The notes: generated by a model from the letters alone, not told the origin. A stretch of DNA of 46,118 nucleotides from an uncultured Verrucomicrobiota bacterium (GCA_964617565.1 CAZTYH010000018.1:1-46118); one strand, 5' to 3'. Counted from the stretch's first letter, positions 26,504 through 46,007 are shown. Numbers and translations are program-made.

Positions 26504-27076
26504 TCACCGCTCAATAACAGTCACATCATCCACCAGGAACGCCCCCTCCGCCGGCCCGGTTCCCTCAAACAGGTGGATACCGAATTTGGCCTGCGCCGCC
26601 CTCTCCGGAGCCTTGGCCCGCCGTATGATCACCTTGCGCCAGCCGACACGCGACAGGCTCGGTCCCCACTCCTCGCTCGAAACGCGCGCCACCTCGCGGC
26701 CCGCTTCGTTCAACCATTCGATCACAAGATGCCCGACCACATTGCCGCGCAAAGGCTGGCCGGAGTCGTTTCTCACGTACGCCTCAAAATCATATCTCCG
26801 TCCGGGAATCACATGGATAATCTGGAGCAGCCCCTGCCCGCTTTTCGGCGCGCGATGCACCTTCATCATCGCGCATTGTGAATCGTTACGGCCGTTGCCC
26901 TCAATCAATCCTCCGCGCTGCCGCTGGGTGGAATAGTGTTCCCATGCCGTCGGCAATTGTCCGGCGCCTTCCCGGGGATCTTCAAAGTCGCCGTTATGGA
27001 GCATGTTTCCGGCGGCCACCATCACGCCGGCCACGATGAAACAACCTGATGCAACCACTGCCCCCAAGGCTCTCAT
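26504..27076 (-). CDS. Small secreted stand-alone CBM-like (CBM4_9 / galactose-binding-like) protein; paralogue of 35575..36159
   Basis: 190 aa. MRALGAVVASGCFIVAGVMVAAG is a signal or anchor sequence. NMLHNGDFEDP...W is the typical opening of a CBM4_9-type sandwich. Shares VIEWLNEAGREVAR and FGIHLFEG...GAFLVDDVTV with the other small protein. Starts 34 bp downstream of the giant gene. Confidence 0.65.
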   Translation of the reverse strand: MRALGAVVASGCFIVAGVMVAAGNMLHNGDFEDPREGAGQLPTAWEHYSTQRQRGGLIEGNGRNDSQCAMMKVHRAPKSGQGLLQIIHVIPGRRYDFEAYVRNDSGQPLRGNVVGHLVIEWLNEAGREVARVSSEEWGPSLSRVGWRKVIIRRAKAPERAAQAKFGIHLFEGTGPAEGAFLVDDVTVIER

Positions 27077-33100: not shown

Positions 33101-34301
33101 GAACGATGCCGGGGCCGGAGGGTGATTCCAGTTTCAGTCCTGCCACCACCCATCCCTTACTGCATTCCAGGTCGGCGATATACAGTTTACCTTTCGCACG
33201 AACCACGTCTCCCGATTTGAAGAAATAGCTCTGCGCAGCCTGATTCCAACTCCATCCGCTCCAGTTTCCGCTCATGCGAAGCGATCTTGTGCCGGCATAA
33301 GCCCGGGCGCTGGTCACCGTCGCGTTCAGATGGTCCGTACCAACAAACCAGCCCGTGGTATTGCCCGGCTCAAAACTGCCATTCTCGGCGTTCACGGGCT
33401 TCTTCTGCGCCCGCACGTCGTCGAAATACACTTCCGCGCTGGCCTGTCCGTTGCCGACATCACCGCACACCATGCAACGGAAGACGTAGAATCCGTCGTT
33501 AGTTACCGTGGTGGTGAATTCAAGCGTGGTCCAGCCAACGGTGCTGGTCGAAGCTTGATAAACGGATTCAATAAAGAAACCGGTCGCTTCATTTTCCAGC
33601 TTGATGCCCGCCACCGCCCAGCCGTCCGTCTTGGTGAACTCCTTCACATACACGCGCGCCTGGGCCCGCACGGTTTCGCCGCTCGTGAGCATCAGACCTT
33701 GTGAAGCATGGTTAAAGCTCCAGTTCGTCCAAACACCTGAGAATTTCGCCGCGTACTCACCCTCATCCACCGTCTCGTGCGAAAGCGCGATGTCGAGATC
33801 GTCCGCCCCCACCATCCAGTCTCTCAACGAGCCGGCTTCGAATCCGCCGTTCATGACGCCTGCGATGCCGCCGTAGATATTGAAGAACACCCAGCCCGGC
33901 TCCGGGTTTGTCCACACCTGCGAGGTGGACTCAAGCGGCCCTTCAAATTTCGCCTCCAGGCGGCCGGCCGCTTCAGCGCTCTCTGCGAGATGCGTCTTCC
34001 ACCAGACGAAACCGACCGCATTCACAACATCGCCGCCGTGCATGCTGAACGATTGGGATATCGAATTCGTGATCCAGCGGGCCGAGGAATAGGAACCCTG
34101 CATGCGGGCGGCATAGTTTCGATTGAACGTCTCATTGGTTGCCACCGAAAGGGCTATTCCGTCGCTACCTGCCACCCATCCGGAGAAATCACCCGTTTCG
34201 AAATCCGGGTTCTGAAGGGTTACAGCAGACGCATGAATAGAAGCAGATAGAAGCGATATCAGCAGCACGAGCACTAATCCACTGTTAGAGAGCGCTCTCA
34301 T
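27111..34301 (-). CDS. Giant (2396 aa) secreted multidomain protein: five CBM-like modules, an uncharacterised core, two TSP3-like repeat regions, a papain/C39-like region and a conserved C-terminal tail
   Basis: Signal peptide MRALSNSGLVLVLLISLLSASIHASA. CBM-like modules open with LQNPDFETGDFSGW, VMNGGFEAGSLRDW, AENGSFEPGNTTGW, GENMGFETGDVMGW and LLLNPGFEFVPLYW. The core carries LGDRDNSSAEF. Asp-rich DMDNDGLPDSWE...DPDRDNYSNMEEYLAGSDPNDPNS and DSDSDGDGVSDAQELYAGSSPLDPDS regions are present. Ends in AAFYRVEVE. The frame stays open with coherent domain grammar over 7.2 kb. Confidence 0.85.
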   Translation of the reverse strand: MRALSNSGLVLVLLISLLSASIHASAVTLQNPDFETGDFSGWVAGSDGIALSVATNETFNRNYAARMQGSYSSARWITNSISQSFSMHGGDVVNAVGFVWWKTHLAESAEAAGRLEAKFEGPLESTSQVWTNPEPGWVFFNIYGGIAGVMNGGFEAGSLRDWMVGADDLDIALSHETVDEGEYAAKFSGVWTNWSFNHASQGLMLTSGETVRAQARVYVKEFTKTDGWAVAGIKLENEATGFFIESVYQASTSTVGWTTLEFTTTVTNDGFYVFRCMVCGDVGNGQASAEVYFDDVRAQKKPVNAENGSFEPGNTTGWFVGTDHLNATVTSARAYAGTRSLRMSGNWSGWSWNQAAQSYFFKSGDVVRAKGKLYIADLECSKGWVVAGLKLESPSGPGIVHSAFEHSYNNTSPEGQWLDMKLMAVITNSATYELRAMVCGDVQSGSALADIYFDAIEISSDHSPTGLVTDAKLTLTYTGYSGGDDKSSEVDIYYDAVMLDGVSANAQPVESLYNRVRDEAAALTAAPDENDIPPVVYPGLNAYGYPGGSTNPIIYPSSIELMAASWRFRAFSNDVVITITNSIMVYELGGEGPGWMELDQYIYCARLWHTLRGAPVEIDTNEPYFVLGDRDNSSAEFGEGPFGSHHTYVVGSPLSQLPRRLVTHYDGQWPTSLHIVFDENLGEYNREYDKYFVLHTVATNGAASNVKALKLAVNCNEPGHTNLTFLSQEIHMGWATDGESRGMVDYPNCTYQDHNEVFLRAGWEYGLLDRDNWFIQQVPRGSATIEPIDLFVRRDGRWSRRSYEEYLFTWPNAASGVRSIFEDDYTDFIPGPASYFVGYKIGHMYGTNEFGEPKFPGIIEIRGNGYFRMTDYDGVMGGSFRPVSADIFGIHQYKEDAPLIPEAYASLVSRTTPTNRGAPDDSYVKIVMPVRSKTNQWFTGVLGFDGHFAPDQVADEGAYFEVENDIYANRAVVLEEHGPLNVFAQVNMFWRGGMGINEGFEGHDHDVIMLNKSDGEWITHYSMNPPTNIYHRRLSSFRSNDVMYIMQQDRGDQSYGFSTEAPYRKVSTFEITMLNDGGRDLSLDIFEQNTISEINDNIVVACPVNENLAKGERVHARYRYRGVFAPGVTILAPNTPDGGNNWSNQIYQIEFQATDGEDEPLHANLYYGNGRSNDWKLINDGQLLLVPVHSHKVAYDWDVSAVPPGSYYIKAEVQRRDGGKYGFDVSDSRLQVGPVFGFPNNGATNVTVVTNQYGHLGENMGFETGDVMGWASGADHLDIYATTLRAWEGDYSARMRGAWAVQGETNVWSWNNLQQQITCVSGETLRVQGRLFIAKLVEGGTNWLRCGIKMESTNEVGRTAHGQEFDGSYATGVWLNVDFERVAPVDGTDQLLLWVGGHDCAHVDVFFDDIKVTSTNTGLVVTNRIRGGYWEGDEPVDVSDHDVLAFQVAMNRDGSNLQVWVADGNGVTNSLPVTNFVERVISLAQQVSIPWTSFPDVDLSRILSLGFVSPSQREFSIQAVRSTPQPVSVHVQFPFAPMKDKEGLPHYNPGQDVIQIITISNDSASALDNVRIQLLQEYGEDTWWWDESPHVAARWSKRTRKGDRLCGDFEANWLSVDIPAHGSTTLTNVYSMPAGRLIDHTRFAIPSDGDWYIFRNYAARGQVRLVVRRADGAALTEIEQAGVYSMDDDYDMDNDGLPDSWELQHGGCETCMEPEDDPDRDNYSNMEEYLAGSDPNDPNSYPGHVTSYVLRLAYTNGVDGFPRAVAEQTNYTGVASAWMIARYLNGPSFTQSQDQIYAANTKSAQHNGEITPQSCASWMYYNAPPQYYFSARYRWTLDEALKETVYWMDYLPPGGQKTPVYILCGTNWSYKVIRGFETDKAPYDGGYGVTTGNVFTIYGVWLNDPRHAGLGYDVYVTASEMNSVYAPSEADGKRWLVAEPPREAEALAQAEEAMAATTILYAEAAADPLLAGQLSALLDGNVFEEKDAGSNDKQWEEYSGPALFNILPGALRDDDGFMSVFDQVGHTNYYLVNAGAGDSEYILAAGGVRGPASTLYVLKLSTHGALQRATWVSESTMYPAVFHDGAKWLAFKDLGLGIPAENLLLNPGFEFVPLYWACGMAATSYPWGARSGSWSMSVASWVADHGYFYQDYTAGQAGEPYTFALWLQRDAGFNASAIELKLEWLDVVGSPLGEVTAEVSGSVDEVYRLFRVDGTAPAGTRTVRCTLWCGGVTGEGALKCDDAILISSTTRTIVEVARLVYDPELDSSPFMPRWEFLLSTPSGVVTGHVSQMRTDLDSDSDGDGVSDAQELYAGSSPLDPDSGFFFMGERTAGSGTDVILEWNSVEGRTYSVWRGTNLFSATPFQRIRARIPATPPVNQHAESLPGSAAFYRVEVE
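34288..34299. promoter_or_regulatory. Perfect 12-bp palindrome GAGAGCGCTCTC abutting the start codon of giant gene 1
   Basis: Read directly. An identical element sits at the start of giant gene 2 (44591..44602), and both lie inside an identical 17-nt block. Its GAGCGCTC core matches the centre of the symmetric lac operator. Confidence 0.35.
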
Positions 34302-34323
34302 AAATAAACAACAACCCCCAGTA

Positions 34324-34345
34324 GCAACGAAACCGGTTTTGTTGC
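34324..34345. promoter_or_regulatory. Candidate LacI-family operator (22-bp near-perfect palindrome) in the divergent promoter region
   Basis: GCAACGAAACCGGTTTTGTTGC is a palindrome with one mismatched pair. A second AACCGGTT core lies at 34394..34408 (AATAACCGGTTTATT). Each is followed by TTGCTAAA(A)CC. Confidence 0.45.
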
Positions 34346-34504
34346 TAAAACCTATATCTTATTACTAAAACGATTGTCAACAAACAAAGTAAGAATAACC
34401 GGTTTATTGCTAAACCGCTTAAGGTTATGGCTTTGCTCTCCATTCGCCTCCGTGTAGTATGGAGGCCTGCACAGATGGGCAGTCGAGGACATCAAAGGAC
34501 TCCT

Positions 34505-35515
34505 ATGCAGAATAGAGCTACACTAAAAGACGTCTGCCGTGAAGCCGGAGTTTCAAAGGCCACGATTTCTCATGTGCTGAACAACAAGCCCGGCGTGAGC
34601 ATGGAAACGCGTAAGCGCATCCTCGAGCTTATTCAAAGAATGGGGTACAAGCCCAAGCCGGCCGCACGCCACCTCTCGCTCGCGCGCACGGAAACCCTCG
34701 CCTGCGTTTTCGAAGATCTCACGCCCGGCTGGCTCTTGAGCATCTATCGCGGCATCCTCAGCAAAGCGTCGGAGATGAAGTACCATGTCGTCACCGCTCT
34801 CTCTGTATGGGAGGGCGATCAGTTCGAACTGCCCACCAACGTTCTCGGCACTGCCAGCGTGGACGGACTGCTCTGGCTCGATCCGCGAACGACGCCGGAC
34901 ATCATCCGCCGATTCAAACAAGAACAGCATATGCCGTTCATCGTGCTGCAGGGACACCTCGACGATCCCGACATCACCACGATCTCCATCGAAGACGCGC
35001 GTGGTGCATATCTCGCCGTGAAACACCTGCTCGACACCGGCCGCCGTAAACTGATGCTGATCACCGGCCAGGAAGACAACTACGACTCGCAGCAAAAACT
35101 CCTCGGCTCACGCCAGGCGCTCGCGGAGGCCGGACTCTCCATCGCGCCCGAGTACATCCTGAACGGCCACCACGTGGACGACTATGCCATTCGCGCCGTG
35201 GACACCTTCATGAAAACCGGCCATCCGTTGCCCGACGCGATCTTCGCGTTCAACGACAACATGGCGCTGGCGGTCATGCGGTGGCTGATGGATCGCGGCA
35301 TCCGCGTGCCGGAAGACGTAGCCATCGTCGGATTCGATGGAATTGACGATGCCCGGCGCAGCGGACTTACCACCGTCGAGACCCCGATGCGCGAGATGGG
35401 CATGCTCGCCGTCCAAACGCTCATCGAACTCATCCACACACCTGCCGCCGAACGCAAGGCCCAGCACATCATGATGGGCGGTACGCTGGCGGTGCGGAGA
35501 ACGACGGCGGGATGA
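34505..35515 (+). CDS. LacI/GalR-family transcriptional regulator
   Basis: MQNRATLKDVCREAGVSKATISHVLNNKPGVSMETRKRILELIQRMGYKPKPAARHL is the canonical LacI HTH and hinge, followed by a periplasmic-binding-protein-like sugar domain (AIFAFNDNMALAVMRWL, VPEDVAIVGFDG). The ORF-track start at 34427 adds 26 atypical residues. Confidence 0.85.
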   Translation: MQNRATLKDVCREAGVSKATISHVLNNKPGVSMETRKRILELIQRMGYKPKPAARHLSLARTETLACVFEDLTPGWLLSIYRGILSKASEMKYHVVTALSVWEGDQFELPTNVLGTASVDGLLWLDPRTTPDIIRRFKQEQHMPFIVLQGHLDDPDITTISIEDARGAYLAVKHLLDTGRRKLMLITGQEDNYDSQQKLLGSRQALAEAGLSIAPEYILNGHHVDDYAIRAVDTFMKTGHPLPDAIFAFNDNMALAVMRWLMDRGIRVPEDVAIVGFDGIDDARRSGLTTVETPMREMGMLAVQTLIELIHTPAAERKAQHIMMGGTLAVRRTTAG

Positions 35516-35574
35516 CGGAAAATATCGAATTTTGAACGCTCAAGATTGAATGTTCGAAGTTTTCCCCGCTCTCC

Positions 35575-36159
35575 CTACTCCTTTACAAATGAAACCTCAT
35601 CCACGAGGAAAGATCCTTTGCCTCCGCGATCACCTTCGTGCAGATGAATTCCGATCACGGCCGCAACAGCGCCCTTCGGCGCCTGCGCCCTGTTGATCTG
35701 CGCCAGTTCCCATCGCATTCGTGACATGGTTGGCTTCAGAGCCTCACCCCACGTCCGCGCAACTTCCCGCCCCTCGTCATCCTTCCACTCGATGGCCAAT
35801 TGTCCATATGCCGAACCTTGCAGGGGATTCGAACGATCGTTCATCACCCATGCCGAAAGCGTATAGCGTCCATCCTCCTCAACATTTACAACCTGGATGA
35901 TGCCTTGAAAATGTCTGGGGATCCCTGCGCAGGAAATTTTTATGCATTGCGTGCCATCTCTCCCCGCTGTCGGCGCAATCCCGATGTCCGCCCGCTTCGC
36001 GGAATACACCATCCAATCGTCCGGTACCGCACCCCCGCGTCCGTCCGGTTGCTCAAATCCGGGGTTCAACAGCGCATTTTCACTTCGCGCCACCGAAGAC
36101 AAGCCCACTGCCAATCCGATTCCAACGACCAGCACCCGACTACGACAACTCGCTTTCAT
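35575..36159 (-). CDS. Small secreted stand-alone CBM-like protein; paralogue of 26504..27076
   Basis: 194 aa with signal peptide MKASCRSRVLVVGIGLAVGLSSVARS, then NALLNPGFEQPDG...W. Shares AIEWKDDEGREVAR and IGIHLHEG...GSFLVDEVSF with the other copy. Starts 45 bp downstream of giant gene 2. Confidence 0.65.
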   Translation of the reverse strand: MKASCRSRVLVVGIGLAVGLSSVARSENALLNPGFEQPDGRGGAVPDDWMVYSAKRADIGIAPTAGRDGTQCIKISCAGIPRHFQGIIQVVNVEEDGRYTLSAWVMNDRSNPLQGSAYGQLAIEWKDDEGREVARTWGEALKPTMSRMRWELAQINRAQAPKGAVAAVIGIHLHEGDRGGKGSFLVDEVSFVKE

Positions 36160-36204
36160 CCCCCGCCCCTCTCTGAGCGATGCTCAACAACCCCATTCTT
36201 CACA

Positions 36205-39200
36205 TCATGGCGTGCCCGCCTTGACTCGATAGTAACGTATGCCATCCTGCGGTTTTCCGCCGCTCGTTCCCGCCGAAAAATCATCAACAAAGGTATACTT
36301 GGCGGAAACAACATTCGTCTCTACCCAGGTTCCGACTCCATTACTGGTGTCGTTGAATGTTCGCCATGTCGTCGTCGGCCCCAACATGCCATCGGTAATC
36401 CACAACGTATATTTCCGGCCCGGCTCCGTTTTAACGGTAACAAGATAAGCATCTCCTTCTGCCGGCTTGGGCGACGCAGCCGTCGTCATCAACGCCGATT
36501 CACTGTTTGTCGGACTTGTGCTGGCCTGATACTCAAACCAGTTCGGCGCTCCGTCGCCGTCCGGATCGTCATCCGCGCCATATTCCAATGCCTGAAAATT
36601 CATCCATTCCCAGACATCCGGCAACCCGTCCCCATCCCAATCCGTCGGCACGATAATCCATGTGCTGCCCGACGCGGTACTGTTGGTTGTCCCCTGGCCG
36701 TCATCACAGGTAAATGCGGCCATGTTGCTGGTCCCCGCATCCGCCACGGTTGTGGTCACCGTCAGGTAACGCCCATTAAAGCCCGAGGATGGCGGGATCG
36801 TCACGGCGGAGATCGTAATGTCGTCGCCATCCGGATCGAAGGCGAGAATGCGGATATCGGTTATGGACTCAATGGGCACATCGTATTGCGGCTCCATGAA
36901 GAACTGCGGGGCGCGGTTTTGTTGCCGCTTGGTGTACAACTCGAATTCATCCAGGTCCAGACCCCACGTTTCTTCGCTGCACCGGAAGGCAAACGTGTGC
37001 GATCCCGCCGTCAGATTGCCGATGTAAATCTCCTGCGAGTTGGTGAAAGAGTCCCACGAATGCGTGCTCAGCGTGGGAAAACGCGCCTTCAATGTTTCAT
37101 CCATGTAGATCTTCAGCATCGTCGGGCCGACATCGTCCGAGTAGCGAACCCGCATGTAGACCTGCGTCGCGGGCGCGCTCAGTGTCACCTGGTAATAGGC
37201 CGTCGAATTGGTCTGCTCCATGTGAATGCTCTGGCCGCCGACGGCGCCCGAGCGAACCGCGTCCACGATGTTGCTGGCGCTGTCATAGTCCTCGCCCTGC
37301 CGCACCAGGATGGATTCGCGCACCCAGTACTTCTTCGGATGCGACACCAGCTTGAACTCGTCCATGTCCATTCCGAACGTTCCCGGACCAACGACAATCC
37401 GGATCGTGTGCCAGCCGGGCAGAAGATCGCCGAGCGGGATGTTCGGCAGCATGTCGAAGTCGTTCCACCCGCCGGTATTCATTCCATAGGCCTGACCAAT
37501 CAGCTCATCGTCAATGTAGACCTGCACAAGATTGCCCGGGTAATCGCCATTGTTTCCGCCGTCGTCGTCGGCGTATCGGATGATCATGTGCGTGTCCGGG
37601 CGGCCGCGATCGAGATACACATGGAACGTCGCCTCGCCTCCGTCCAGTCCGAAGCTGATCGCCTCATTGCCACGCCCACCCGTGCGAATCACTTTCGTGT
37701 ACCCGATTCCCTCATCCAGTGTTTCCGCCTGCCGGACCAGGAACGCCTTGATCGGGTCCGTGATCTCAAACGCAAACTCAGGGCAATAGGTGTTGTGATA
37801 TGTCGTGACTTCCTTGAAGAATTTCCACCATGTCCCGTGCAGTTCGTTCCAGTGCCGCTGAATCGGAAAGACCCCATCCGCGGTTTCGACGCGGTCAATA
37901 TCCGCTTTCCCGTCGAACACCCACATGGAGCGGAATCGCGTGAAGGAATTGGTCGTCGTGTCGTAACGGATGTCTGTCACGTCCACCACGTTCTGCTCGC
38001 GGTCCACCCAGAGGTCCATGCGACACGAGCCACCGTTCTTGTAGACGATATCCATCGAGAGATCCTTCGGATTCACCGTCACGGTATCAATCGCGGCGAA
38101 CGGGCGGTCGCTCTCCACCGTCGGTCCGACGATCACCGATGCACCGAACGGCGTCCAATCCACGCCCTTCGGCGGGTGCGGAAGCAGCCTCACGTTGCCG
38201 TCCTCATACATGACAAACACCTGCGAGTATTCCATCGTGTTCGTGTCGGGCACGCGCTTCACGATGCGGAAGTAGTGAACGTCCGTCGCGGAACCCTGCG
38301 GCGTGATTACCGTCATGGCCGCGGGCGCGCGCCACCAGAAGTCAATATGGATGGCTTCGACGATGACATTCCCGTCCTCATACAGCGTGGCGAAGCTCGG
38401 TCCGACATGCCACCACGGAACATCAATAAGTTCCTTTGGCGCCATTTCACCCGCCTCGTCGCGCTTGGTGAGCTGAAGCGCATCATAATCGGCGTGCGCG
38501 CCTGGTGTCGTTTCGCCGCCCTGCTCCGACGGAACCACTTCCAAGCGGATCGTGCTCATGTCCGTTTCCTCGGACCAGAAGAAATCGGGCGTCTGCCAAT
38601 GCCGCACCAGATTCTGCGCGTTGAAGACATGGTTACTGGTCGGCTGCCACCGCCCATCTCTCCACTCCACCTGGTTGGTCAGCACCAGCCAATCGGTGCC
38701 GTTCCCTATGGAAACCCGCAAATCCAGCGTTCCAGTCACCTCACGCATCGCCACCATCAGCCGCGACCCGATCAGATGAACGAGGTTCACATCCTCCGGC
38801 TCGAATGCCGTGAACACGATGTACTGGTTGGACATCACGGATGTGTCTAACTCCGCCGGGAACTCGGACCATGGCTCGTCAATCCCGGCGGGCGGATGAT
38901 CGAGCGTGTAATGCACGTCCCCTTCACCGTATCCGGATTGCTTGAACTCGGCGGAAGAGCCGTCCAGGTTCCCAATCTTCCAGATCGTGCGATCGGCGAA
39001 GTCGCAATCGTCGAAGTCGTGCCCGCGCTCGTTGATGGAGGACGGGTAGTACGCCGGATGCGTTACCGTCACGCGGAACGCGCTGGTGTTCGTGTGCCAT
39101 AGCGGCACATTGATGTTATCCATCTCCGCACACAACGTGTCGTAGGAGCGCTCCTCGATCCAGCCCTGTTGGCTGCTCAAGCTCGGGACGTACACGCTGA

Positions 39201-42200
39201 CGGCCAGCGTGTAGGCGCCCACGTTCGTCACGCCGTTCACAACCTCGTAGGAACGGACTCGATAGAACCACGTTCCGCCTTCGGTGGTCGGATGATGCGA
39301 GAACTGCATCAGCAGGTTGGTTGTGTAAAACGCGGTCGGATAACGGAAATCACCGTTGTCCGCTTCGAGGACCTGGTATCCTGTCACATTGGACGCGGCC
39401 AACCACGCGATCGTGAACTGTCCTTCCGCCGTGGGATAGCTGGCCGCCAGACCGGTTGGCGGCTCCGGCGCCTGCCACGGCGTGCCGCCCGCAAGATTGA
39501 GGTCGTCGAAGTATATCTCGCCGCCTTCGTCCGCCTGATTCGGAAACGGCAGGACGTGCACGACGGATACGTTGGTCGCGCCCTGTATCTCCGAGAAGTC
39601 CCACACGAGCTTCTCCCATTCGCCTTCGCCGGTGTAGGTTTGAACGCCGACATCCGCGTCGTCGAACTTCAGCAGGATAGGAATCCGGAACTCCGTCGGG
39701 CTCATGACCCATAGCTCAAGAAGATAGTTCCCATCCATGGCAAAGTCCGGATAGTTCCCGATGCGGCCAACAGGTGCGGTTTCTTCATCGTGGACGGGAA
39801 GGTATTGAATGCCTGAGTAATCCTTCAGCTTATTGGTCCAGACGAGCCTCAGGGAATGCTGACCGATATTCAGGCGGTTTCCGTTCGCGGGGCGTGTTAC
39901 GGGTATAATTTCTTTTCCGTATATATCCGCCGCGTACCAACCGAAGGCATCGGACTCGAACGCATCGAGCGGCGCGCTGTTGACGGCGCGCTGGAGCTGG
40001 ACATCGTCCATCCAGAACGTGCCGGAGTTGGTGCCGTCCCCCGGCGCCACCATGAAGATGATCTGTGAAACGGCGGTCAGATCAATGCTGTCCGCGCCGT
40101 ACGTGCGGCTTAAATCGAACGCCAGGTTTTCCCAATCGGCTTCCGGCGTCCTTGTTTCCGGCATAATTCCCGCCCAACCGGATTCGAAGAATCCGCCCGC
40201 GTTGTCCTCCAAGCGGATCAGGAACTTCAGCGGACTGCCGTCATTGTAAACCCAGAAGCTCAGGTAATCGTGATTCCTGAAGTTGAACAGGCCCGCAGCG
40301 GACATGAAGCTGAAGACATTGACATCGTTGTTCTTGTCGTAATCCACCTTCAGCGCCACGACCCCGGAATGCACATGCTGGGTACTGCCGAAATCGAGCG
40401 TGTAGGCAAATGGCGGCACCGGATCGTTTGCCCACCAGAACGAAACCTGTTCCTGTTCGTTTATGCCCCCATCAAATGTCTCCAGGTTTTCATATGCGAG
40501 TTGCGCAGCAGGCTGGTACTCGACCGTCACCGGTATGATCGCGGCATAACTGCTCTTGTTGGTTCCGACCACGGAACGCGCCCGATAGTAGTACGTGCCG
40601 GCTTCTGCAATCGGATCTTTGGTCACGGCCACGCGCGTCCCGTTGGTTCGCAGGACGGTAACGGAGCCGAAATTCTGATCTGCAGATTCTTCCACCTCAT
40701 ACTCATCCGCCCCAACGTCATCCCATCTGAAGTGGTAATGCCCGTCGCCGTCCGGGTTCTTCGCCGTTGTCCGGAAACGGCCCGGCGCGATCGGAATCGG
40801 GGCCGCGCGGCCGCCAAAGAGGTTCATGTCGTCCAGATACATCACGCCGCCGTCATCGGCCATGTTGGGATACGGGATGACGAATACCTGGGCCACGTTC
40901 GTCGCGCCGGACACATTCGAGTAATCCCAGACCAAACGCTGCCATTCGCCGGTGCCGCGATATGAAAGGACGCCGACATCCGCGTCGTCGAACTTCAACA
41001 GGATGGGCATGTTGGTTTCAGTCGGGCTGCTCACCCACAATTCGAGCAGATGGTTGTCATACAACGTGAAATCCTGATAGTTGCCGATACGCCCGGCCGG
41101 CGCATTGTCGCCATCATGACCTGGTTCATAGGTGAAGTTGTCGTAGCCCTGAGCCTTGGCGTCCCATGTCACCTTCAGCGAAGACTGCCCGAGCCCGAAC
41201 GGCAGCCCGTCGTTATGGAAGACCTCGTTGGTCAGGCTCAGGTTGGTGAAGGCGCCGCCGCCGGCCCATCCATACAAGTCCGACTCGAACGGCTCCAGCG
41301 GCGCGCTGTTCGGCGCGCGCCGCAGGACGATGTCGTCCACCCAGAACTCGCCGCTCGCGGTTTCGCTGCCGGGCTCGACCATGAACATGATCTGCCCGAT
41401 CTGTGTCATATCAATCTCGCCGTTCGCGTGGCCGAAGAACGAGCGCGTCAGGTCAATGCAGATGTTTTCCCAGTCGGCATTGGTCGTTACCGTTCGGGGG
41501 AAGATGTCCGCCCAATCCGTTTCCCATGCCTTGTTGTAGTCGCCGAACTGCTCAAAGCGCACCTTGATGCGCAGCGGCGTGCCGGTGTTGTAGACCCAGA
41601 AGGAGAGGTAGTCGAACGAGTGAAGATTGAAGAGCCCGGAGGCCGACATGAAGCTATACGCGTTCGTGAAAACCTCTCCCAGTTCGTTGGTCCGAACCTC
41701 GTTTGCCTTGTCGTACACCACCTTCATCGCGTAGTCGCCGGAGAACACGTGTTCCTGATTCCGGAAGTCCTGCTGATAGACCCATGGATCGGCCGGGTCG
41801 CTGCCCCACCAGGCGCTGATCGCGCCGCCGAACTCGAAATCGGCGAGGACCTCCACTTGCTCGACCGGCGGCGGCACGACCTGCGCCTTGATTGAAGCCG
41901 TGAAGCTTCCATATCCCGCGGCTGTCGAGGAACGCACGCGATAGAAGAAGGTGCCCTTCTCAACAAGCGGATTCTTTGCAAACGCAAAGAAAGGCGTGTT
42001 CGTGAACAGGCTGACCGGACTCCCGAAGTTGGGATCCGTATCTTCCTGCAGTTCGTACATGACAGCGCCAGGCACAGCGCTCCACGTTACCTCATACATT
42101 CCATCGTCATCCGGCTCCGCTGCGGTAGATGCAAGATTGAGCGGCGCGTATGGCACTTCCGGAATGGAGCCGCCGACGAGATTCAAATCGTCCAGATACA

Positions 42201-44604
42201 TCACACCGCCGTCGTCCGCCATGTTCGGATACGGAATAATGTAGAGCTTGGTGACGTTCTCGCGCCCCGGCACGGCGTCCATTTCCCATCGAACATTCTG
42301 CCACTCGCCCGCGCCGGTGTAGGTCTGCACCCCGACATCTGCCTCGTCGAACTTCAGCAGGATCGGGATGCTCGCGTCCGTCGGACTCTTGATGCGCATC
42401 TCGATCGTGTTGTTATCGTACAGCGCGAAGTTGGTGTAGTTGCCTATGCGGCCGGGCGGCGCGCTGTTCGTGTCGTGCGCCGGCTCGTAGGTGATATTCG
42501 AGAAGTTCTTCTCTTTCGGGCCCCACTCGATTATCAGCGAGCTTTGACCGAGCCCGAAAACACTGCCGTCGTTGAAGAATTCTTCGGTGGTGTTGGTGAT
42601 CGAAAACGGGGCGCCGGATGCCCAGCCGTAGAAATCTGATTCGAACACATCCAGCGGCGCGCTGTTGACCGAGCGGTGCAGCGCGATGTCGTCCATCCAG
42701 AACTCGCCCGTCGCGGTCTCGCTGCCCGGCTCGATCATGAACATGATTTGGCCGACTTGTGTTAGATCAATGTCGCCGACCGAATGACCGTAGAACGCGC
42801 GGGTCAGATCAATCGTAATGTTTTCCCAATCGGCGGCGCCGGTTTCCATGCGGGGAAAGATCGCCGCCCAGTCTGTTTCCCATGCCTTTTCAAAGTTCCC
42901 GAGTTGCTCCAACCGAACCTTGATCCGCAGCGGCGAGCCGTTGTTGTAAACCCAGAACGAAAGGTAATCGAAGTTCAGGAAGTTGTAGTGGCCGCTCGCG
43001 GAGAAGAAGCTGTAGGCATTGGTTGCGCCGCTCGGTGTCTGCTCGTTTGCCTTGTTGTAGACCACGTGCATGGAATGCTGACCCGAAAGCACGTGCTCCG
43101 TGCTCTTGAAATTCTGCTGGTAAACCCATGGGTCGTCCGGGTCGCTGCCCCACCAGGCGAGCACCTGGCCGGGCGAGTCGAAATCGGCAATCACATCGCG
43201 CGCGCGCGCCGCTTCGGGGAACTGGTGAACGCGAACGCGAAGCGGGGCCGTGAAAGTGCCCGCGACGTTGCTCACCATGGAGGCCACGCGATAATAGTAG
43301 GTCCCACCGGAGGCCGCGGGATCCATGGAGATATTCATGGACGTTCCCGTCGTGGAGATGCGGGTGTAATTGGTGAAATTGACGCTTGTATCCCAGTCGA
43401 AAACGTAATTCGTGGCACCGGCGACCTTGGTCCACTGGATGGTGAACTGGCCGTCTTCATCCGGTGTTCCGGCGTTAGACCAGAAGCTCGTGGGAGCCAG
43501 AGGGAGCACCGTACCTGTGCCGCCGGATAATGCGATATTGTCTATGTACATCGTCCCGCCGTTGTCGGCCATATTCGGATAAGGAAAGAGCCATACCGTT
43601 TCGAGCTTGGAAGCGATGGCGGCCTGCGCCGAGAAGTTCCACGACAACTTCTGCCAAGTCCCTGCCCCCGTGTAGTTCACCGTGTTCACATCCGACGTAC
43701 CGGCGCTGCCTGTGAATTTCAACAGGATGGGGAAGTTATTGTCCGTCGTACTTTTGACCCACACATCAAACGTGTTGTTTCCATACGTCGTAAAATTTGT
43801 GTAGCGACCGACCCGATGCAGCGGGGCGTTGGTGTCATGCTGGGGCGTGTACGTGAAGTTGTCATAGTTGGCGCTCTTGTTCGTCCACGTGATCCGGAGT
43901 GATTGTTGACCGAGATCCGTCGGACTGCCGCTGTTCTGGAAATGCTGAACCGAAAGCCCCATGTTCGTGAACACGCCGCCACCCGACCATCCGTAGAAGT
44001 CACTCTCAAAGGGTTCCAGAGGCGCACCGTTCGGCGCACGCGTGAGCGCGATATCATCCAGCCAGAAGCTTCCACGATTGGTGACATCGCCGGGCGAGAC
44101 CATGAACATGATGTTACGGATCGCTTTCCAATTCACGCTCGTGGCGGAGAATCCACGCGTGAGATCCACGACGAGGTTTTCCCAGTCGGCGCCGGGCGTC
44201 TTCATCGCAGGCCAGATGTCCGCCCAATCGGTCTCCCACGGATTACCGGCATCGTCTTCCAGGCGGACCTTGACGTGAAGCGGAGTTCCCGTGTTGTACA
44301 CCCAGAAAGAAAGGTAGTCGAAGTTACTGAAATTGAATTGTCCGCTTGCAGACAGAAAGCTGAATGGACTTTCCGAGTCGTTCCGCTTTTCGAAATCAAT
44401 CTTCAGGGAGAACTCGCCAGAGTGAACGTGTTGAGTATTCGCAAAGCCGAGGGTATAGACAAAAGGAGGAACGGAATCAGCCCCCCACCATGCCGCGACG
44501 AGGGATGAACCATCGAAGTTTTCGATGATCTCCTCCGAGCCGTAAGCCGGACTGACAATCAGGACAACCGCGACGAAAGCGAGGACAACAGAGAGCGCTC
44601 TCAT
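36205..44604 (-). CDS. Giant (2799 aa) secreted multidomain protein: four tandem repeats of about 445 aa (two CBM-like sandwiches plus one FN3-like domain each), an uncharacterised core, two CBM6-like modules, a cadherin-like domain, TSP3-like repeats and a conserved C-terminal tail
   Basis: Signal peptide MRALSVVLAFVAVVLIVSPAYG. The repeat blocks FDYLSFWVYN, ADWEN, FWxDDI, PILLKF and PYPNMADxGG recur four times. The core carries IGNLDGSSAEF. The CBM6-like pair are ...GGWNDFDMLP...GWHTIRIVV...MDMDEFKLV and ...HSWDSFTNSQ...GSHTFAFRC...LDLDEFELY. NRAPQFF...ILAFDPDGDDITIS is cadherin-like. DWDGDGLPDVWEW...DDDPDGDGAPNWFEY is TSP3-like. Ends in IRYYRVKAGTP. Confidence 0.85.
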   Translation of the reverse strand: MRALSVVLAFVAVVLIVSPAYGSEEIIENFDGSSLVAAWWGADSVPPFVYTLGFANTQHVHSGEFSLKIDFEKRNDSESPFSFLSASGQFNFSNFDYLSFWVYNTGTPLHVKVRLEDDAGNPWETDWADIWPAMKTPGADWENLVVDLTRGFSATSVNWKAIRNIMFMVSPGDVTNRGSFWLDDIALTRAPNGAPLEPFESDFYGWSGGGVFTNMGLSVQHFQNSGSPTDLGQQSLRITWTNKSANYDNFTYTPQHDTNAPLHRVGRYTNFTTYGNNTFDVWVKSTTDNNFPILLKFTGSAGTSDVNTVNYTGAGTWQKLSWNFSAQAAIASKLETVWLFPYPNMADNGGTMYIDNIALSGGTGTVLPLAPTSFWSNAGTPDEDGQFTIQWTKVAGATNYVFDWDTSVNFTNYTRISTTGTSMNISMDPAASGGTYYYRVASMVSNVAGTFTAPLRVRVHQFPEAARARDVIADFDSPGQVLAWWGSDPDDPWVYQQNFKSTEHVLSGQHSMHVVYNKANEQTPSGATNAYSFFSASGHYNFLNFDYLSFWVYNNGSPLRIKVRLEQLGNFEKAWETDWAAIFPRMETGAADWENITIDLTRAFYGHSVGDIDLTQVGQIMFMIEPGSETATGEFWMDDIALHRSVNSAPLDVFESDFYGWASGAPFSITNTTEEFFNDGSVFGLGQSSLIIEWGPKEKNFSNITYEPAHDTNSAPPGRIGNYTNFALYDNNTIEMRIKSPTDASIPILLKFDEADVGVQTYTGAGEWQNVRWEMDAVPGRENVTKLYIIPYPNMADDGGVMYLDDLNLVGGSIPEVPYAPLNLASTAAEPDDDGMYEVTWSAVPGAVMYELQEDTDPNFGSPVSLFTNTPFFAFAKNPLVEKGTFFYRVRSSTAAGYGSFTASIKAQVVPPPVEQVEVLADFEFGGAISAWWGSDPADPWVYQQDFRNQEHVFSGDYAMKVVYDKANEVRTNELGEVFTNAYSFMSASGLFNLHSFDYLSFWVYNTGTPLRIKVRFEQFGDYNKAWETDWADIFPRTVTTNADWENICIDLTRSFFGHANGEIDMTQIGQIMFMVEPGSETASGEFWVDDIVLRRAPNSAPLEPFESDLYGWAGGGAFTNLSLTNEVFHNDGLPFGLGQSSLKVTWDAKAQGYDNFTYEPGHDGDNAPAGRIGNYQDFTLYDNHLLELWVSSPTETNMPILLKFDDADVGVLSYRGTGEWQRLVWDYSNVSGATNVAQVFVIPYPNMADDGGVMYLDDMNLFGGRAAPIPIAPGRFRTTAKNPDGDGHYHFRWDDVGADEYEVEESADQNFGSVTVLRTNGTRVAVTKDPIAEAGTYYYRARSVVGTNKSSYAAIIPVTVEYQPAAQLAYENLETFDGGINEQEQVSFWWANDPVPPFAYTLDFGSTQHVHSGVVALKVDYDKNNDVNVFSFMSAAGLFNFRNHDYLSFWVYNDGSPLKFLIRLEDNAGGFFESGWAGIMPETRTPEADWENLAFDLSRTYGADSIDLTAVSQIIFMVAPGDGTNSGTFWMDDVQLQRAVNSAPLDAFESDAFGWYAADIYGKEIIPVTRPANGNRLNIGQHSLRLVWTNKLKDYSGIQYLPVHDEETAPVGRIGNYPDFAMDGNYLLELWVMSPTEFRIPILLKFDDADVGVQTYTGEGEWEKLVWDFSEIQGATNVSVVHVLPFPNQADEGGEIYFDDLNLAGGTPWQAPEPPTGLAASYPTAEGQFTIAWLAASNVTGYQVLEADNGDFRYPTAFYTTNLLMQFSHHPTTEGGTWFYRVRSYEVVNGVTNVGAYTLAVSVYVPSLSSQQGWIEERSYDTLCAEMDNINVPLWHTNTSAFRVTVTHPAYYPSSINERGHDFDDCDFADRTIWKIGNLDGSSAEFKQSGYGEGDVHYTLDHPPAGIDEPWSEFPAELDTSVMSNQYIVFTAFEPEDVNLVHLIGSRLMVAMREVTGTLDLRVSIGNGTDWLVLTNQVEWRDGRWQPTSNHVFNAQNLVRHWQTPDFFWSEETDMSTIRLEVVPSEQGGETTPGAHADYDALQLTKRDEAGEMAPKELIDVPWWHVGPSFATLYEDGNVIVEAIHIDFWWRAPAAMTVITPQGSATDVHYFRIVKRVPDTNTMEYSQVFVMYEDGNVRLLPHPPKGVDWTPFGASVIVGPTVESDRPFAAIDTVTVNPKDLSMDIVYKNGGSCRMDLWVDREQNVVDVTDIRYDTTTNSFTRFRSMWVFDGKADIDRVETADGVFPIQRHWNELHGTWWKFFKEVTTYHNTYCPEFAFEITDPIKAFLVRQAETLDEGIGYTKVIRTGGRGNEAISFGLDGGEATFHVYLDRGRPDTHMIIRYADDDGGNNGDYPGNLVQVYIDDELIGQAYGMNTGGWNDFDMLPNIPLGDLLPGWHTIRIVVGPGTFGMDMDEFKLVSHPKKYWVRESILVRQGEDYDSASNIVDAVRSGAVGGQSIHMEQTNSTAYYQVTLSAPATQVYMRVRYSDDVGPTMLKIYMDETLKARFPTLSTHSWDSFTNSQEIYIGNLTAGSHTFAFRCSEETWGLDLDEFELYTKRQQNRAPQFFMEPQYDVPIESITDIRILAFDPDGDDITISAVTIPPSSGFNGRYLTVTTTVADAGTSNMAAFTCDDGQGTTNSTASGSTWIIVPTDWDGDGLPDVWEWMNFQALEYGADDDPDGDGAPNWFEYQASTSPTNSESALMTTAASPKPAEGDAYLVTVKTEPGRKYTLWITDGMLGPTTTWRTFNDTSNGVGTWVETNVVSAKYTFVDDFSAGTSGGKPQDGIRYYRVKAGTP
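39166..44535 (-). repeat. Intragenic tandem array: four diverged coding repeats of about 1.33 kb (approx. 43195..44535, 41851..43194, 40489..41850, 39166..40488)
   Basis: Boundaries come from my residue count of the protein (aa 24-470, 471-918, 919-1372, 1373-1813). The repeats are diverged at both the DNA and protein level, so the duplication is not recent. Confidence 0.8.
44591..44602. promoter_or_regulatory. Perfect 12-bp palindrome GAGAGCGCTCTC overlapping the start codon of giant gene 2
   Basis: Read directly. Plus-strand 44590..44606, AGAGAGCGCTCTCATAA, is identical to 34287..34303. Confidence 0.35.
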
Positions 44605-44646
44605 AATCGGACCCTTTCATACAACTTGCCGATCGGACTCAATAGT

Positions 44647-44743
44647 ATCAGAGGTGTGTGCCGAATGCAGTGCTGAACGGTGAATACCTGAGAGAGAGAG
44701 GGGTATATGCACCAAGCTCGTCTCCGACACACACCTCTATGAT
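44647..44743 (-). other. 97-nt imperfect hairpin in the 5' leader or promoter region of giant gene 2 (candidate structured leader or ncRNA)
   Basis: The outer stem ATCAGAGGTGTGTG (44647-44660) pairs with CACACACCTCT-A-TGAT (44728-44743). In RNA it is extendable by G-U pairs. The inner hairpin pairs GGTGAATACC with GGTATATGCACC. The apical loop is a (GA)6 tract, CU-rich on the minus-strand transcript. Confidence 0.35.
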
Positions 44744-44990
44744 CTTCATAAGGACATAATGCACACGTGAATCCCGTTTGTCAACACGTGAACATAGAAA
44801 AATTCGCAGAATGAATATTTTGTATCATTCGTGAGAATTAAGCTGTGATTCAGGATCTGATTCGGCTTAGCACGGCTAAATTTTATGCTGCTCTTTTCGC
44901 ACAAGGCACTCCCTTGAGGAAATCCGGATCTTTCTATTTCACTAATAATGAGTTGCACGTGTGCATCAGTGTATGTACAGTTCGGGCCTT

Positions 44991-46007
44991 ATGAGCCAGA
45001 GGGTGACAATCAAGGATGTTGCAAGAAGCGCAGGCGTCACGCACACGACTGTTTCAAGAGTGATTCACAACGACTCGCGCATCAGCGAAGGCACACGGCA
45101 GCGAGTCCTTACCGCGATGAAAAGCCTGGACTATCAACCCAACCTCATCGCGCGAGGACTCATCAACAACCGGACCCAGGCGGTCGCGATGATAACGCCG
45201 GACCTCGACACCTTCGCCCTGCCGGTTGTCAAATCCGTTGCCGAATCCTGCGCCACCCGGCAATACGCGCTACTTCTTTATTCCGCCAACACGTGGCGCC
45301 GGGAAAATCTTTCGTTCGAATGGATCGCCCGGAATTGGCTTGTGGACGGCACGCTGATCTACAACCTGATCTACCACGACCGTGTGCCGCCCGAAATTAT
45401 TGACCTCCGCAACCGCCGCCTCCCCTTCGTGTTCATCAACAAGTTCATCAACGAACCCGACTTGAACGCCGTGGGCACAGACAATCATCACGCCGTGAAA
45501 CTCGTGTTGGACCATCTGCTGGCAACGGGCCGCAAGCGCATCGGCTGGCTCAACGGCGATACGACTTCCGTTGACGGCATGGAACGTTTCCTCGCGTTTC
45601 GCACGGAGATCGAGCGGGCCGGACTGCACTATGACGCGCGCTTCACCGGCTGCGGCCTGTGGCGTGACACCGACGCCTTCAACGAGACAATGCGCATCTG
45701 CAGCGGAGATGAAAAGCCCGACGCGATTTTTTGCGCCAACGATCTCATGGCCATCGGTGCCATCAAGGCCATTCATCAGCTCGGGATGAAAGTGCCGGAC
45801 GATATCGCCGTAGCGGGCATTGACGATAACGAGATCAGTCGGCTCCTTGAGCCTCAATTGACCACAGTGAAAATGCCGCTCGAGGAAGTGGGATCCGCCG
45901 CAACGGATCTGCTCATGAAAGTCATCCAGGAACCGGACCGCCCACCCGAGCAAATAGCCCTCCAAAGCAAGCTCATCGTCCGCGCCTCGACCAAAAACCC
46001 CCGATAG
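44991..46007 (+). CDS. LacI/GalR-family transcriptional regulator
   Basis: [57 protein letters not shown] is the canonical HTH and hinge. The sugar-binding domain shows [17 protein letters not shown] and [12 protein letters not shown]. The ORF-track start at 44961 adds 10 residues. Confidence 0.85.

What the first reader, a model, noticed from the sequence alone, without database searches (positions are those of the whole stretch)
44590..44606. Identical 17-nt block with a perfect 12-bp palindrome at the start codons of both giant genes
Seen directly: on the coding strand both giant genes begin TTATGAGAGCGCTCTCT (plus-strand 34287..34303 and 44590..44606 are identical). The flanking 5' leaders and downstream codons are unrelated.

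The block contains GAGAGCGCTCTC, a perfect palindrome overlapping the ATG. Its GAGCGCTC core is the centre of the idealised symmetric lac operator. It forces the N-terminus M-R-A-L-S and uses AGA for Arg, which looks like the minority Arg codon in this window (by eye, not counted). The small gene 26504..27076 also starts ATGAGAGC (MRAL).

Nucleotide-level conservation in otherwise diverged genes suggests a cis element. It could be an operator for the adjacent LacI-type regulators acting as a roadblock at the start codon, or a start-codon hairpin controlling translation initiation.
Basis: seen in the sequence. Interest (0 to 1): 0.65.

Follow-up and report, generated by a model that had tools for sequence, protein, structure and literature searches.

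The report
LacI-type operator built into start codons
The identical block at the start of both giant genes is real and conserved across related bacteria, and is most likely a repressor-binding DNA site of the lactose-repressor (LacI) family that uses the ATG as part of its sequence: a neat but ordinary piece of sugar-gene regulation.

Summary
TTATGAGAGCGCTCTCT occurs only at 34287-34303 and 44590-44606, at the start codons of two giant secreted-protein genes in a Kiritimatiellia MAG from sludge.

The conserved unit is 14 nt, ATGAGAGCGCTCTC. It is invariant in six loci (orthologues of both giants, several species) while both flanks diverge. Two further loci carry one substitution each, which changes the peptide but keeps 13 of 14 matches to TGAGAGCGCTCTCA. 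The Ser5 third base, just outside the palindrome, occurs as T, C, G and A. So the constraint acts on DNA, not on the peptide.

TGAGAGCGCTCTCA is a published, predicted CelR/CebR-like LacI-family site. In a metagenome scan I found it in autoregulatory positions next to LacI genes whose recognition helix is RATVSR.

The two neighbouring LacI genes belong to other specificity classes (KATISH and HTTVSR). Each has its own class-matched operators in its promoter region. The block is therefore most likely bound by a third LacI-type repressor that was not found, acting as a roadblock downstream of the transcription start.

The RNA hairpin is weak (-3 kcal/mol, no better than shuffles). No recombination joints were seen. 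The small gene's MRAL is a coincidence.

This is a new member of a known kind, of modest interest.

The parts
44591..44604 (-). Conserved 14-nt unit ATGAGAGCGCTCTC at the giant2 start. The ATG is 44604-44602. The operator-like 14-mer TGAGAGCGCTCTCT is 44603-44590.
   Evidence: Invariant in L044 and L045. One substitution each in L046 and L169. Strain variants change only 44590.
34288..34301 (-). Conserved 14-nt unit ATGAGAGCGCTCTC at the giant1 start. The ATG is 34301-34299. The operator-like 14-mer is 34300-34287.
   Evidence: Invariant in L038 and L040. No strain variant between 34285 and 34311.
36205..44604 (-). Giant2: a 2799-aa secreted repeat protein with signal peptide MRALSVVLAFVAVVLIVSPAYG.
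27111..34301 (-). Giant1: a 2396-aa secreted protein with CBM_4_9, MdoG-like and TSP3 hits.
34427..35515 (+). LacI1, a LacI-family regulator with recognition helix S-KATISH. The true start is probably Met27 at 34505, because orthologues are 331-343 aa.
44961..46007 (+). LacI2, a LacI-family regulator with recognition helix T-HTTVSR. The database protein P0080 is 344 aa, so the start is probably 44973.
34322..34347 (.). LacI1-class operator: palindrome TAGCAACGAAACCGGTTTTGTTGCTA with core 34328-34341. It lies just downstream of the predicted giant1 promoter (-35 TTGACA at 34380-34375).
   Evidence: Conserved in L038, L040, L041 and L170. The KA class has published sites TGAAACCGGTTTCA.
34388..34414 (.). 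Second LacI1-class operator (AATAACCGGTTTATT), lying between the predicted giant1 -35 box and the lacI1 start.
   Evidence: A 78-bp strain deletion between the two operators is seen.
44760..44794 (-). Two LacI2-class (HT-class) operators, GATTCACGTGTGCA (44773-44760) and TGTTCACGTGTTGA (44794-44781). They overlap the giant2 promoter: TTGACA at 44784-44779, 17-nt spacer, CATTAT at 44761-44756.
44952..44965 (+). Third HT-class site, GTTGCACGTGTGCA, at the start of lacI2. Probably autoregulatory.
44650..44738 (-). Conserved hairpin in the roughly 144-nt giant2 leader, with a CU-rich apical region. It is not shared with giant1.
   Evidence: 11 pairs with compensatory changes in 4 orthologues. No Rfam match.
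35575..36159 (-). Small CBM_4_9-like secreted protein downstream of giant2. It is a paralogue (38% identity) of 26504-27076, which lies downstream of giant1.

Best explanation
The block is a LacI-family operator of the CelR/CebR-like type (ideal form TGAGAGCGCTCTCA) laid over the first five codons of each giant gene.

The A, T and G of the start codon are operator positions 8, 7 and 6 of the left half-site. Codons 2-5 (AGA GCG CTC TC-) supply the rest. The operator therefore dictates the N-terminus M-R-A-L-S and the rare codon AGA. TCT is also rare, but its third base lies outside the palindrome and varies freely.

A dimeric LacI-type repressor with an R-A-T-V-S-R-like recognition helix is inferred to bind it. 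That repressor would be encoded elsewhere in the genome and would be neither neighbour.

The site lies downstream of the predicted transcription start, at about +45 in giant1 and about +145 in giant2. The inferred action is a transcription roadblock, lifted by a sugar effector.

Each giant gene also carries, in its promoter, operators matched to its own divergent LacI neighbour. Expression would then need two signals, one locus-specific and one shared.

The identical register in both paralogues is explained by double constraint. The site is both operator and start codon, so neither can move. It is the only stretch still identical between two anciently duplicated modules.

Shown: the conservation, the sequence class, and the class-matched operators of the neighbours. 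Inferred: the binding, the identity of the repressor, the roadblock and the effector.
For: 1. Selection acts on DNA.
- ATGAGAGCGCTCTC is invariant in 6 loci: the window twice, plus L038, L040, L044 and L045. Their giants are 58-81% identical in protein, and only 47-61% of identical residues use the same codon. Both flanks are unconserved.
- The Ser5 third base, the first base outside the palindrome, is T, C, G or A in different lineages.
- L046 (MRAIS) and L169 (MRSLS) change the peptide yet keep 13 of 14 matches to the ideal palindrome.

2. Sequence class.
- TGAGAGCGCTCTCA, AGAGAGCGCTCTCT and GGAGAGCGCTCTCC are published as predicted CelR-like sites upstream of putative cellobiose transporter operons, LacI genes and glycosidases in Actinobacteria (PMC3377646).
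- They are variants of the EMSA-verified CebR box TGGGAGCGCTCCCA (PMC4358012).

3. Independent metagenome evidence.
- Among 120 contigs holding ATGAGAGCGCTCTCY, three have the site beside a LacI gene.
- L113 has two sites flanking a TTGACA-N16-TACAGT promoter directly upstream of a LacI gene that is followed by a sugar-binding protein gene.
- L048 has two sites between a LacI gene and a sugar dehydrogenase operon.
- L057 has one site between a GH3 gene and a LacI gene.

4. Recognition classes.
- The LacIs of L113 and L057 have helix SRATVSR.
- In the Camas et al. dataset, regulators of the RATVSR class have AGAGAGCGCTCTCT (twice), GGAGAGCGCTCT and GGGAGCGCTCTCA upstream.
- LacI2 is HTTVSR. The published sites of that class (TGTTCACGTGTTCA, TGTTAACGTGTGCA) match 44760-44794 and 44952-44965.
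- LacI1 is KATISH. The KA-class sites (TGAAACCGGTTTCA) match 34322-34347.

5. L041 and L170 keep LacI1-type operators without the block.

6. LacI-family sites inside coding regions are functional elsewhere. CebR boxes lie at +32 of txtA and +1507 of txtB. CcpA acts as a roadblock at cre sites (PMC4348106).
Against: - No binding data exist.
- The predicted third regulator was not found. Only about 56 kb of the 781-kb contig could be read, and it holds no LacI gene with an RA-type helix and no further site.
- The right arm lacks the final A in six of eight loci.
- The (R,A) class is not in the statistically resolved code table of Camas et al.. The link rests on raw upstream sequences and two metagenome examples.
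- A plain roadblock does not need a fixed register with the ATG, although distance from the predicted start varies from about 45 to about 145 nt. An added or alternative role at the mRNA or translation level is therefore not excluded.
- The promoters and transcription starts are predictions. No RNA data were available.
Confidence: 0.6

Rival explanations
1. The block is an auxiliary operator for the adjacent LacI1 and/or LacI2, working with their promoter operators through looping or roadblock, as lac O2 works with O1.
For: - A LacI gene is divergently adjacent in every locus that has the block.
- All LacI2-type loci that have a giant gene have both the HT-class operators and the block.
- LacI2 keeps Arg at helix position 6, which would fit G at operator position 6.
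Against: - The specificity positions differ. The block has A,G at positions 5 and 4. The HT class reads TT/CA and the KA class reads AA.
- Each neighbour already has class-matched operators.
- The same block serves two regulators that are only 29% identical and have different helices.
- LacI1-type loci L041 and L170 lack the block but keep their own operators.
Confidence: 0.12
2. The palindrome is an operator for a dimeric DNA-binding protein of another family, not LacI.
For: Perfect 12-bp symmetry with both half-sites conserved points to a dimer on double-stranded DNA. The binder has not been identified.
Against: - The central CpG, the TG at positions 7 and 6, and the 13 of 14 match to described CelR-like sites are LacI-family hallmarks.
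- The same sequence sits in autoregulatory positions next to LacI genes in unrelated contigs.
Confidence: 0.1
3. The element acts in the mRNA. It could be a start-codon hairpin, a binding site for a translational repressor or small RNA, or a partner for the CU-rich loop of the giant2 leader, controlling translation initiation.
For: - The register with the ATG is fixed in all 8 loci, although the predicted leader length varies from about 45 to about 145 nt.
- The giant2 leader has a conserved hairpin with a CUCUCUC loop that could pair with the GAGAG of the block.
Against: - The hairpin is 4 bp, -3.0 to -3.9 kcal/mol, with z-scores of -0.03 to -0.67. It is absent from the 51-nt minimum-energy fold at giant1.
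- A hairpin does not need a self-complementary centre, yet GCGC is conserved.
- Giant1 has no CU-rich leader.
- There is no Rfam match.
- The substitutions in L046 and L169 fall within the 4-nt centre (GCGC), which is the loop of the predicted 4-bp hairpin, so they do not bear on this model.
Confidence: 0.08
4. The constraint is on the peptide or on codon choice. MRALS would be a favoured N-terminus, and A/T-rich rare codons would be favoured for initiation.
For: - Arg or Lys at position 2 is typical of signal peptides.
- AGA and TCT are rare, A/T-rich codons.
- A third gene starts MRAL.
Against: - Three synonymous sites inside the palindrome never vary, while the adjacent Ser5 third base shows all four bases.
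- The peptide itself changes in L046 and L169, while the palindrome score is kept.
- The small gene's MRAL is not conserved.
- More distant homologues start differently.
Confidence: 0.04
5. The block is a recombination or gene-conversion site shared by the two genes, or a chance identity.
For: The two copies are direct repeats 10.3 kb apart, and the core is symmetric.
Against: - No joints or loose ends fall at either block in contigs from 7 public runs.
- The block is conserved in orthologues of both genes in several species.
- Chance expectation is 0.05.
Confidence: 0.02

Closest known systems
CelR/CebR boxes of Actinobacteria (TGGGAGCGCTCCCA) and their predicted variants TGAGAGCGCTCTCA, AGAGAGCGCTCTCT and GGAGAGCGCTCTCC (PMC3377646, PMC4358012)
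   Same: - A 14-bp palindrome with the same GAGCGCTC centre.
- The block is 13 of 14 identical to the Catenulispora/Thermobispora variant.
- It is associated with secreted carbohydrate-binding proteins and LacI genes.
- CebR boxes also work inside coding regions (+32 of txtA, +1507 of txtB).
   Different: - The phylum is different (Kiritimatiellota).
- The site is fused to the start codon in a fixed register.
- No cognate regulator has been identified here, and the effector is unknown.
- The variant sites in the literature are predictions, not tested sites.
E. coli lac operators (ideal symmetric operator AATTGTGAGCGCTCACAATT; O2 inside lacZ)
   Same: Positions 1-4 and 6 of each half-site are the same (G-GAGC|GCTC-C). 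An operator lies downstream of the start in coding DNA.
   Different: - Position 5 is A, not T.
- No regulator of the Y-Q class is present.
- lac O2 is an auxiliary site for the same repressor that binds O1. Here the promoter operators belong to other specificity classes.
CcpA/cre catabolite control with roadblock (PMC4348106)
   Same: A LacI-family dimer binds a 14-bp palindrome downstream of the promoter and blocks elongation. A shared regulator is layered over operon-specific ones. An HPr gene lies beside the LacI2 orthologue in L045.
   Different: The block departs from the cre consensus TGWAANCGNTNWCA at two positions (consensus from my own knowledge, counted by hand). No CcpA-type (M-A) helix was seen. 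There is no evidence for HPr-dependent binding.
Class-matched local operators of the two neighbours: AscG-type TGAAACCGGTTTCA (K-A class) and ExuR-type TGTTAACGTGTGCA (H-T class) (PMC2978694 dataset)
   Same: LacI1 and LacI2 have these helix classes, and such sites lie in their intergenic regions.
   Different: These are not the block. They show what the neighbours most likely bind instead.

Membership tests
LacI-family operator | Even-length palindrome centred on a CpG step | tested here: met
   GAGAGC|GCTCTC is a perfect 12-bp palindrome with a central CG.
LacI-family operator | T-G at positions 7 and 6 of the left arm and C-A at the mirror positions of the right arm | tested here: inconclusive
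   The left arm is met in all 8 loci, where the T and G come from the ATG. On the right arm the C is always present. The final A is present only in L046 and L169 and is T, C or G elsewhere.
CelR/CebR-like box (RA-class variant TGAGAGCGCTCTCA) | Sequence match to described sites | tested here: met
   13 of 14 matches in all 8 loci. The described sites are in PMC3377646 and upstream of RATVSR-class regulators in the PMC2978694 dataset.
CelR/CebR-like box (RA-class variant) | A cognate LacI-family regulator with a matching recognition helix encoded nearby (local regulation) | tested here: not met
   The neighbours have helices KATISH and HTTVSR. None of the 176 retrieved homologues of LacI1 and LacI2 has RATVSR. 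No other LacI gene was found in the window or in the 10 kb beyond it.
CelR/CebR-like box (RA-class variant) | A cognate regulator anywhere in the genome, and more sites forming a regulon | not testable with these tools
   Only about 56 kb of the 781-kb contig JASEKQ010000003.1 was readable. The genome-contig scan did not contain this organism.
CelR/CebR-like box (RA-class variant) | Specific protein binding relieved by a sugar effector | not testable with these tools
   This needs EMSA or footprinting.
Functional cis element in general | Conservation beyond the neutral expectation in orthologues | tested here: met
   The 14 nt are invariant in 6 loci while the flanks are unconserved. At identical residues the same codon is used only 47-61% of the time.
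Translation-control hairpin at the start codon | A stable structure sequestering the start codon, more stable than chance | tested here: not met
   -3.0 to -3.9 kcal/mol, z-scores of -0.03 to -0.67.
Known RNA family (Rfam) | Match to a curated covariance model | tested here: not met
   No relevant hit in 34200-45000 at E-value up to 1.
cre (CcpA) site | Fit to TGWAANCGNTNWCA, and a CcpA-like regulator | tested here: not met
   Two mismatches to the consensus (counted by hand; consensus from my own knowledge). No M-A class helix among the neighbours.

The most novel reading that the evidence does not exclude
The fixed register with the ATG may be functional rather than historical. In that reading the 14-mer is a dual-use element read both as DNA and as mRNA. 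One version is that the same or another factor occupies the start codon on the transcript. Another is that, in giant2, the block pairs with the conserved CU-rich leader loop. Either would couple a transcription roadblock to control of translation initiation for giant secreted proteins in Kiritimatiellota.
Probability: 0.08. Interest if true: 0.6.

Novelty: new member of a known kind. Interest (0 to 1): 0.35.

Why it matters
It gives a concrete, testable regulatory map for two giant secreted carbohydrate-binding proteins in Kiritimatiellota, a phylum with almost no experimental genetics. Each gene would be gated by its own LacI neighbour, through class-matched promoter operators, and by a shared CelR-like site.

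It is also a clean natural example of a transcription-factor site and a protein N-terminus encoded in the same bases. The operator fixes the peptide MRALS and a rare codon, and it has stayed identical while the rest of the duplicated module diverged beyond recognition.

For annotation, it shows that identity at gene starts can reflect an operator rather than homology of the proteins.

Tried and rejected
- **Genome scan.** A scan of GTDB representative genomes with the 17-mer gave 32 scattered single hits in unrelated taxa and none in Kiritimatiellota. That is consistent with chance, and the source organism is not in that collection.
- **Metagenome scan.** Most hits were chance. It gave no further Kiritimatiellia loci, but it did give the three LacI-adjacent examples.
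- **L061 and L153.** Their second nearby sites looked like operator pairs but lie in long open frames, so I treated them as chance.
- **Giant1 N-terminus search.** It found only three homologues at about 40% identity, and none starts MRALS. They are too distant to be useful.
- **RNA evidence.** No RNA run holds the locus. Rfam gave nothing.
- **Start-codon hairpin.** Rejected on energy.
- **Recombination site.** Rejected, because there are no joints.
- **MRAL as a general N-terminal motif.** Rejected, because the small-gene orthologues differ.
- **Extended similarity between the two loci.** None was found. The LacIs are 29% identical, the small proteins 38%, and the giants are not alignable.
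- **Further sites.** There is no other site with 2 or fewer mismatches in the window, nor in the 10 kb to its right.

Full report
**1. The observation**

TTATGAGAGCGCTCTCT occurs exactly twice in the 46-kb window, at 34287-34303 and 44590-44606, both on the minus strand. No other match exists even with three mismatches. Chance expectation is 0.05.

Each copy holds the ATG of a giant ORF: 27111-34301 (2396 aa) and 36205-44604 (2799 aa). Both proteins begin MRALS and continue with unrelated signal peptides.

The core GAGAGCGCTCTC is a perfect palindrome. The window has 28 perfect 12-bp palindromes, so symmetry alone is not unusual, but this one is found only at these two places.

AGA is 3.8% of Arg codons and TCT is 5.5% of Ser codons here.

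**2. Context**

The region is an anciently duplicated three-gene module: a divergent LacI-family gene, a giant secreted protein and a small CBM_4_9-like protein.

- Module 1: lacI1 34427-35515(+), giant1, small gene 26504-27076(-).
- Module 2: lacI2 44961-46007(+), giant2, small gene 35575-36159(-).

The paralogues are very old. The LacIs are 29% identical, the small proteins 38%, and the giants are barely alignable.

The source is a Kiritimatiellia MAG from sludge or wastewater, NCBI GCA_030153545.1, on a 781-kb contig.

**3. Is the block conserved in relatives?**

I found orthologous loci through homologues of the two LacI proteins and the contigs that encode them.

Giant1 orthologues:
- L038 (LacI 89% identical, giant 58%) starts ...ccatttATGAGAGCGCTCTCTaaaaac.
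- L040 (LacI 89%, giant 78%) starts ...cggatATGAGAGCGCTCTCCataatc.

Giant2 orthologues:
- L044 (LacI 82%) starts ...ctgatgATGAGAGCGCTCTCTgcagtt.
- L045 (LacI 69%) starts ...ttgtttATGAGAGCGCTCTCCggaatg.

In an alignment anchored on the ATG, the 14 nt ATGAGAGCGCTCTC are invariant in all six loci. Almost no other column within 30 nt upstream or 45 nt downstream is conserved. In these same gene pairs, identical amino acids use the same codon only 47-61% of the time.

The third base of Ser5 is the first base outside the palindrome. It is T, C or A in different species, and G in strain variants of the window's own species. Strain variants at locus 1 change bases at 34283-34284 and 34312-34322, but none between 34285 and 34311.

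Two more distant loci carry one substitution each:
- L046: ATGAGAGCGATCTCA (MRAIS).
- L169: ATGAGATCGCTCTCA (MRSLS).

The peptide changes in both, yet both still match TGAGAGCGCTCTCA at 13 of 14 positions, as do all the others.

So selection acts on the DNA sequence. The peptide MRALS follows from it.

Loci L041 and L170 are LacI1-type (77% and 66% identical). Their giants start MKYARKW and MIRMRGM and have no block.

**4. What kind of element is it?**

The RNA hairpin is only 4 bp. Its energy is -3.0 to -3.9 kcal/mol, no better than shuffled sequence, and it is not even in the best fold at giant1. Rfam gives nothing. No contig from seven public runs shows a joint or loose end at either block.

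The sequence does have the LacI-family operator frame: a central CpG and T-G at positions 7 and 6, supplied here by the ATG.

The literature search found the same palindrome. Anderson et al. (PMC3377646) report TGAGAGCGCTCTCA, AGAGAGCGCTCTCT and GGAGAGCGCTCTCC as predicted CelR-like sites. These lie upstream of putative cellobiose ABC-transporter operons in several Actinobacteria. In Catenulispora acidiphila the palindrome also lies upstream of a second LacI gene with an adjacent GH5 gene, and upstream of two GH16 genes. They are one-base-per-half-site variants of the CelR/CebR box TGGGAGCGCTCCCA. That box is bound by CebR in EMSA and is functional even inside coding regions, at +32 of txtA and +1507 of txtB (PMC4358012).

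The metagenome scan gave independent support, although it was truncated and mostly chance hits. Three of the 120 contigs carry the site next to a LacI gene:
- L113 has two copies flanking a TTGACA-N16-TACAGT promoter directly upstream of a LacI gene, which is followed by a sugar-binding protein gene.
- L048 has ATGAGAGCGTTCTCAT and ATGAGAGCGCTCTCC between a LacI gene and a sugar dehydrogenase operon.
- L057 has GGAGAGCGCTCTCAT between a GH3/CBM6 gene and a LacI gene.

I estimate fewer than 0.5 such cases by chance.

**5. Who binds it?**

Camas et al. (PMC2978694) showed that, in LacI proteins with a T-V-S-R recognition helix, the two residues before TVSR set operator positions 5 and 4.

| Regulator | Helix | Published sites of that class | Matching sites in the window |
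|---|---|---|---|
| LacI2 | HTTVSR | TGTTCACGTGTTCA, TGTTAACGTGTGCA, TTTTAACGTGTGCA | 44760-44773 and 44781-44794 (over the TTGACA-N17-CATTAT promoter of giant2); 44952-44965 (at the lacI2 start) |
| LacI1 | KATISH | TGAAACCGGTTTCA (K-A class, e.g. AscG) | palindrome 34322-34347; second copy 34388-34414 |

The HT-class matches rest. The motif is kept in the promoter spacer of L044, L045, L046 and L169. The KA-class matches rest. Those operators are kept in all LacI1-type loci, including those without the block.

Block-like sites go with R-A-T-V-S-R helices. The LacIs of L113 and L057 have that helix. In the Camas dataset, RATVSR regulators have AGAGAGCGCTCTCT twice, GGAGAGCGCTCT and GGGAGCGCTCTCA upstream.

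Neither neighbour is of that class. None of the 176 retrieved homologues of LacI1 and LacI2 is either. I therefore infer a third LacI-type repressor encoded elsewhere. I could not read the rest of the genome to find it.

**6. Mechanism (inferred)**

The predicted promoters put the block at about +45 to +58 in giant1, where the -35 box lies 79-81 nt upstream of the ATG in three orthologues. In giant2 it lies at about +144 to +158, and in L169 at about +64.

A LacI-family dimer bound there would block elongating polymerase, as CcpA does at downstream cre sites (PMC4348106). Together with the promoter operators of the neighbour LacI, each giant gene would need two signals.

Because the operator contains the ATG, a polymerase stopped in front of it makes an RNA without a start codon. 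This could be an advantage, but it is speculation.

The constant register is most simply explained by the site being both operator and start codon since before the duplication, so that neither could shift. A role in the mRNA cannot be excluded.

**7. Verdict**

The element is a LacI-type operator. It is probably not the operator of the adjacent regulators, it is not a hairpin, and the third MRAL gene is a coincidence.

It is a new member of a known kind of element, with a neat overlap of operator and coding sequence. Interest is modest.

Noticed in passing
window 44650-44738 (-): The roughly 144-nt leader of giant2 holds a long hairpin (GAGGTGTGTGTCGG ... CGGCACACACCTC) with a conserved CU-rich apical stretch (CTCTCTCTC). 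Four orthologues keep it, with 11 pairs changed on both sides. There is no Rfam match. It is absent from giant1 and from L169. It could be an unknown cis-regulatory RNA.
   Followed up: partly
window 34322-34347 and 34388-34414: Two AAACCGGTTT-centred palindromes lie between giant1 and lacI1 and are probably LacI1 operators. One strain (run X14) has a 78-bp deletion between them (34318 joined to 34397).
   Followed up: partly
window 44760-44794 and 44952-44965: CACGTG-centred sites of the HTTVSR (ExuR-like) class overlap the giant2 promoter and the start of lacI2, which suggests autoregulation.
   Followed up: yes
window 34427-34504 and 44961-44972: The longest ORFs of both LacI genes probably overcall the start. 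Orthologues and database entries are 331-344 aa, which points to Met27 (34505) for LacI1 and to 44973 for LacI2.
   Followed up: partly
L168 1234-9632 (GCA_030153525.1): In a second assembly of the same species, giant2 is called as two ORFs (495 + 2304 aa). This would be a frameshift, a nonsense variant or an assembly error.
   Followed up: no
L040 2613-2617: This relative lacks the small CBM-like gene after giant1. The giant is followed directly by the SNF2 helicase gene.
   Followed up: no
L045 1799-2140: A PTS HPr gene lies directly after the LacI2 orthologue in one relative. In the window's own genome the next gene is a TSP3-repeat protein, followed by an exopolysaccharide export cluster (L167 12307-21035).
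   Followed up: no
window 7100-9877 (-) and giant1 residues 1001-1120: A GH94-superfamily protein is encoded in the window, and giant1 has an MdoG-like stretch. Together with a GH94 gene beside a LacI1-like regulator in L042, this hints at beta-glucan or beta-glucoside metabolism. That would fit a CelR-like site.
   Followed up: no
L169 2599-9771: A LacI2-type regulator (HTTVSR, 60% identical) is paired here with a giant that has the giant1-type domain hits (CBM_4_9, MdoG). Regulator type and giant type are therefore not strictly coupled across species.
   Followed up: no
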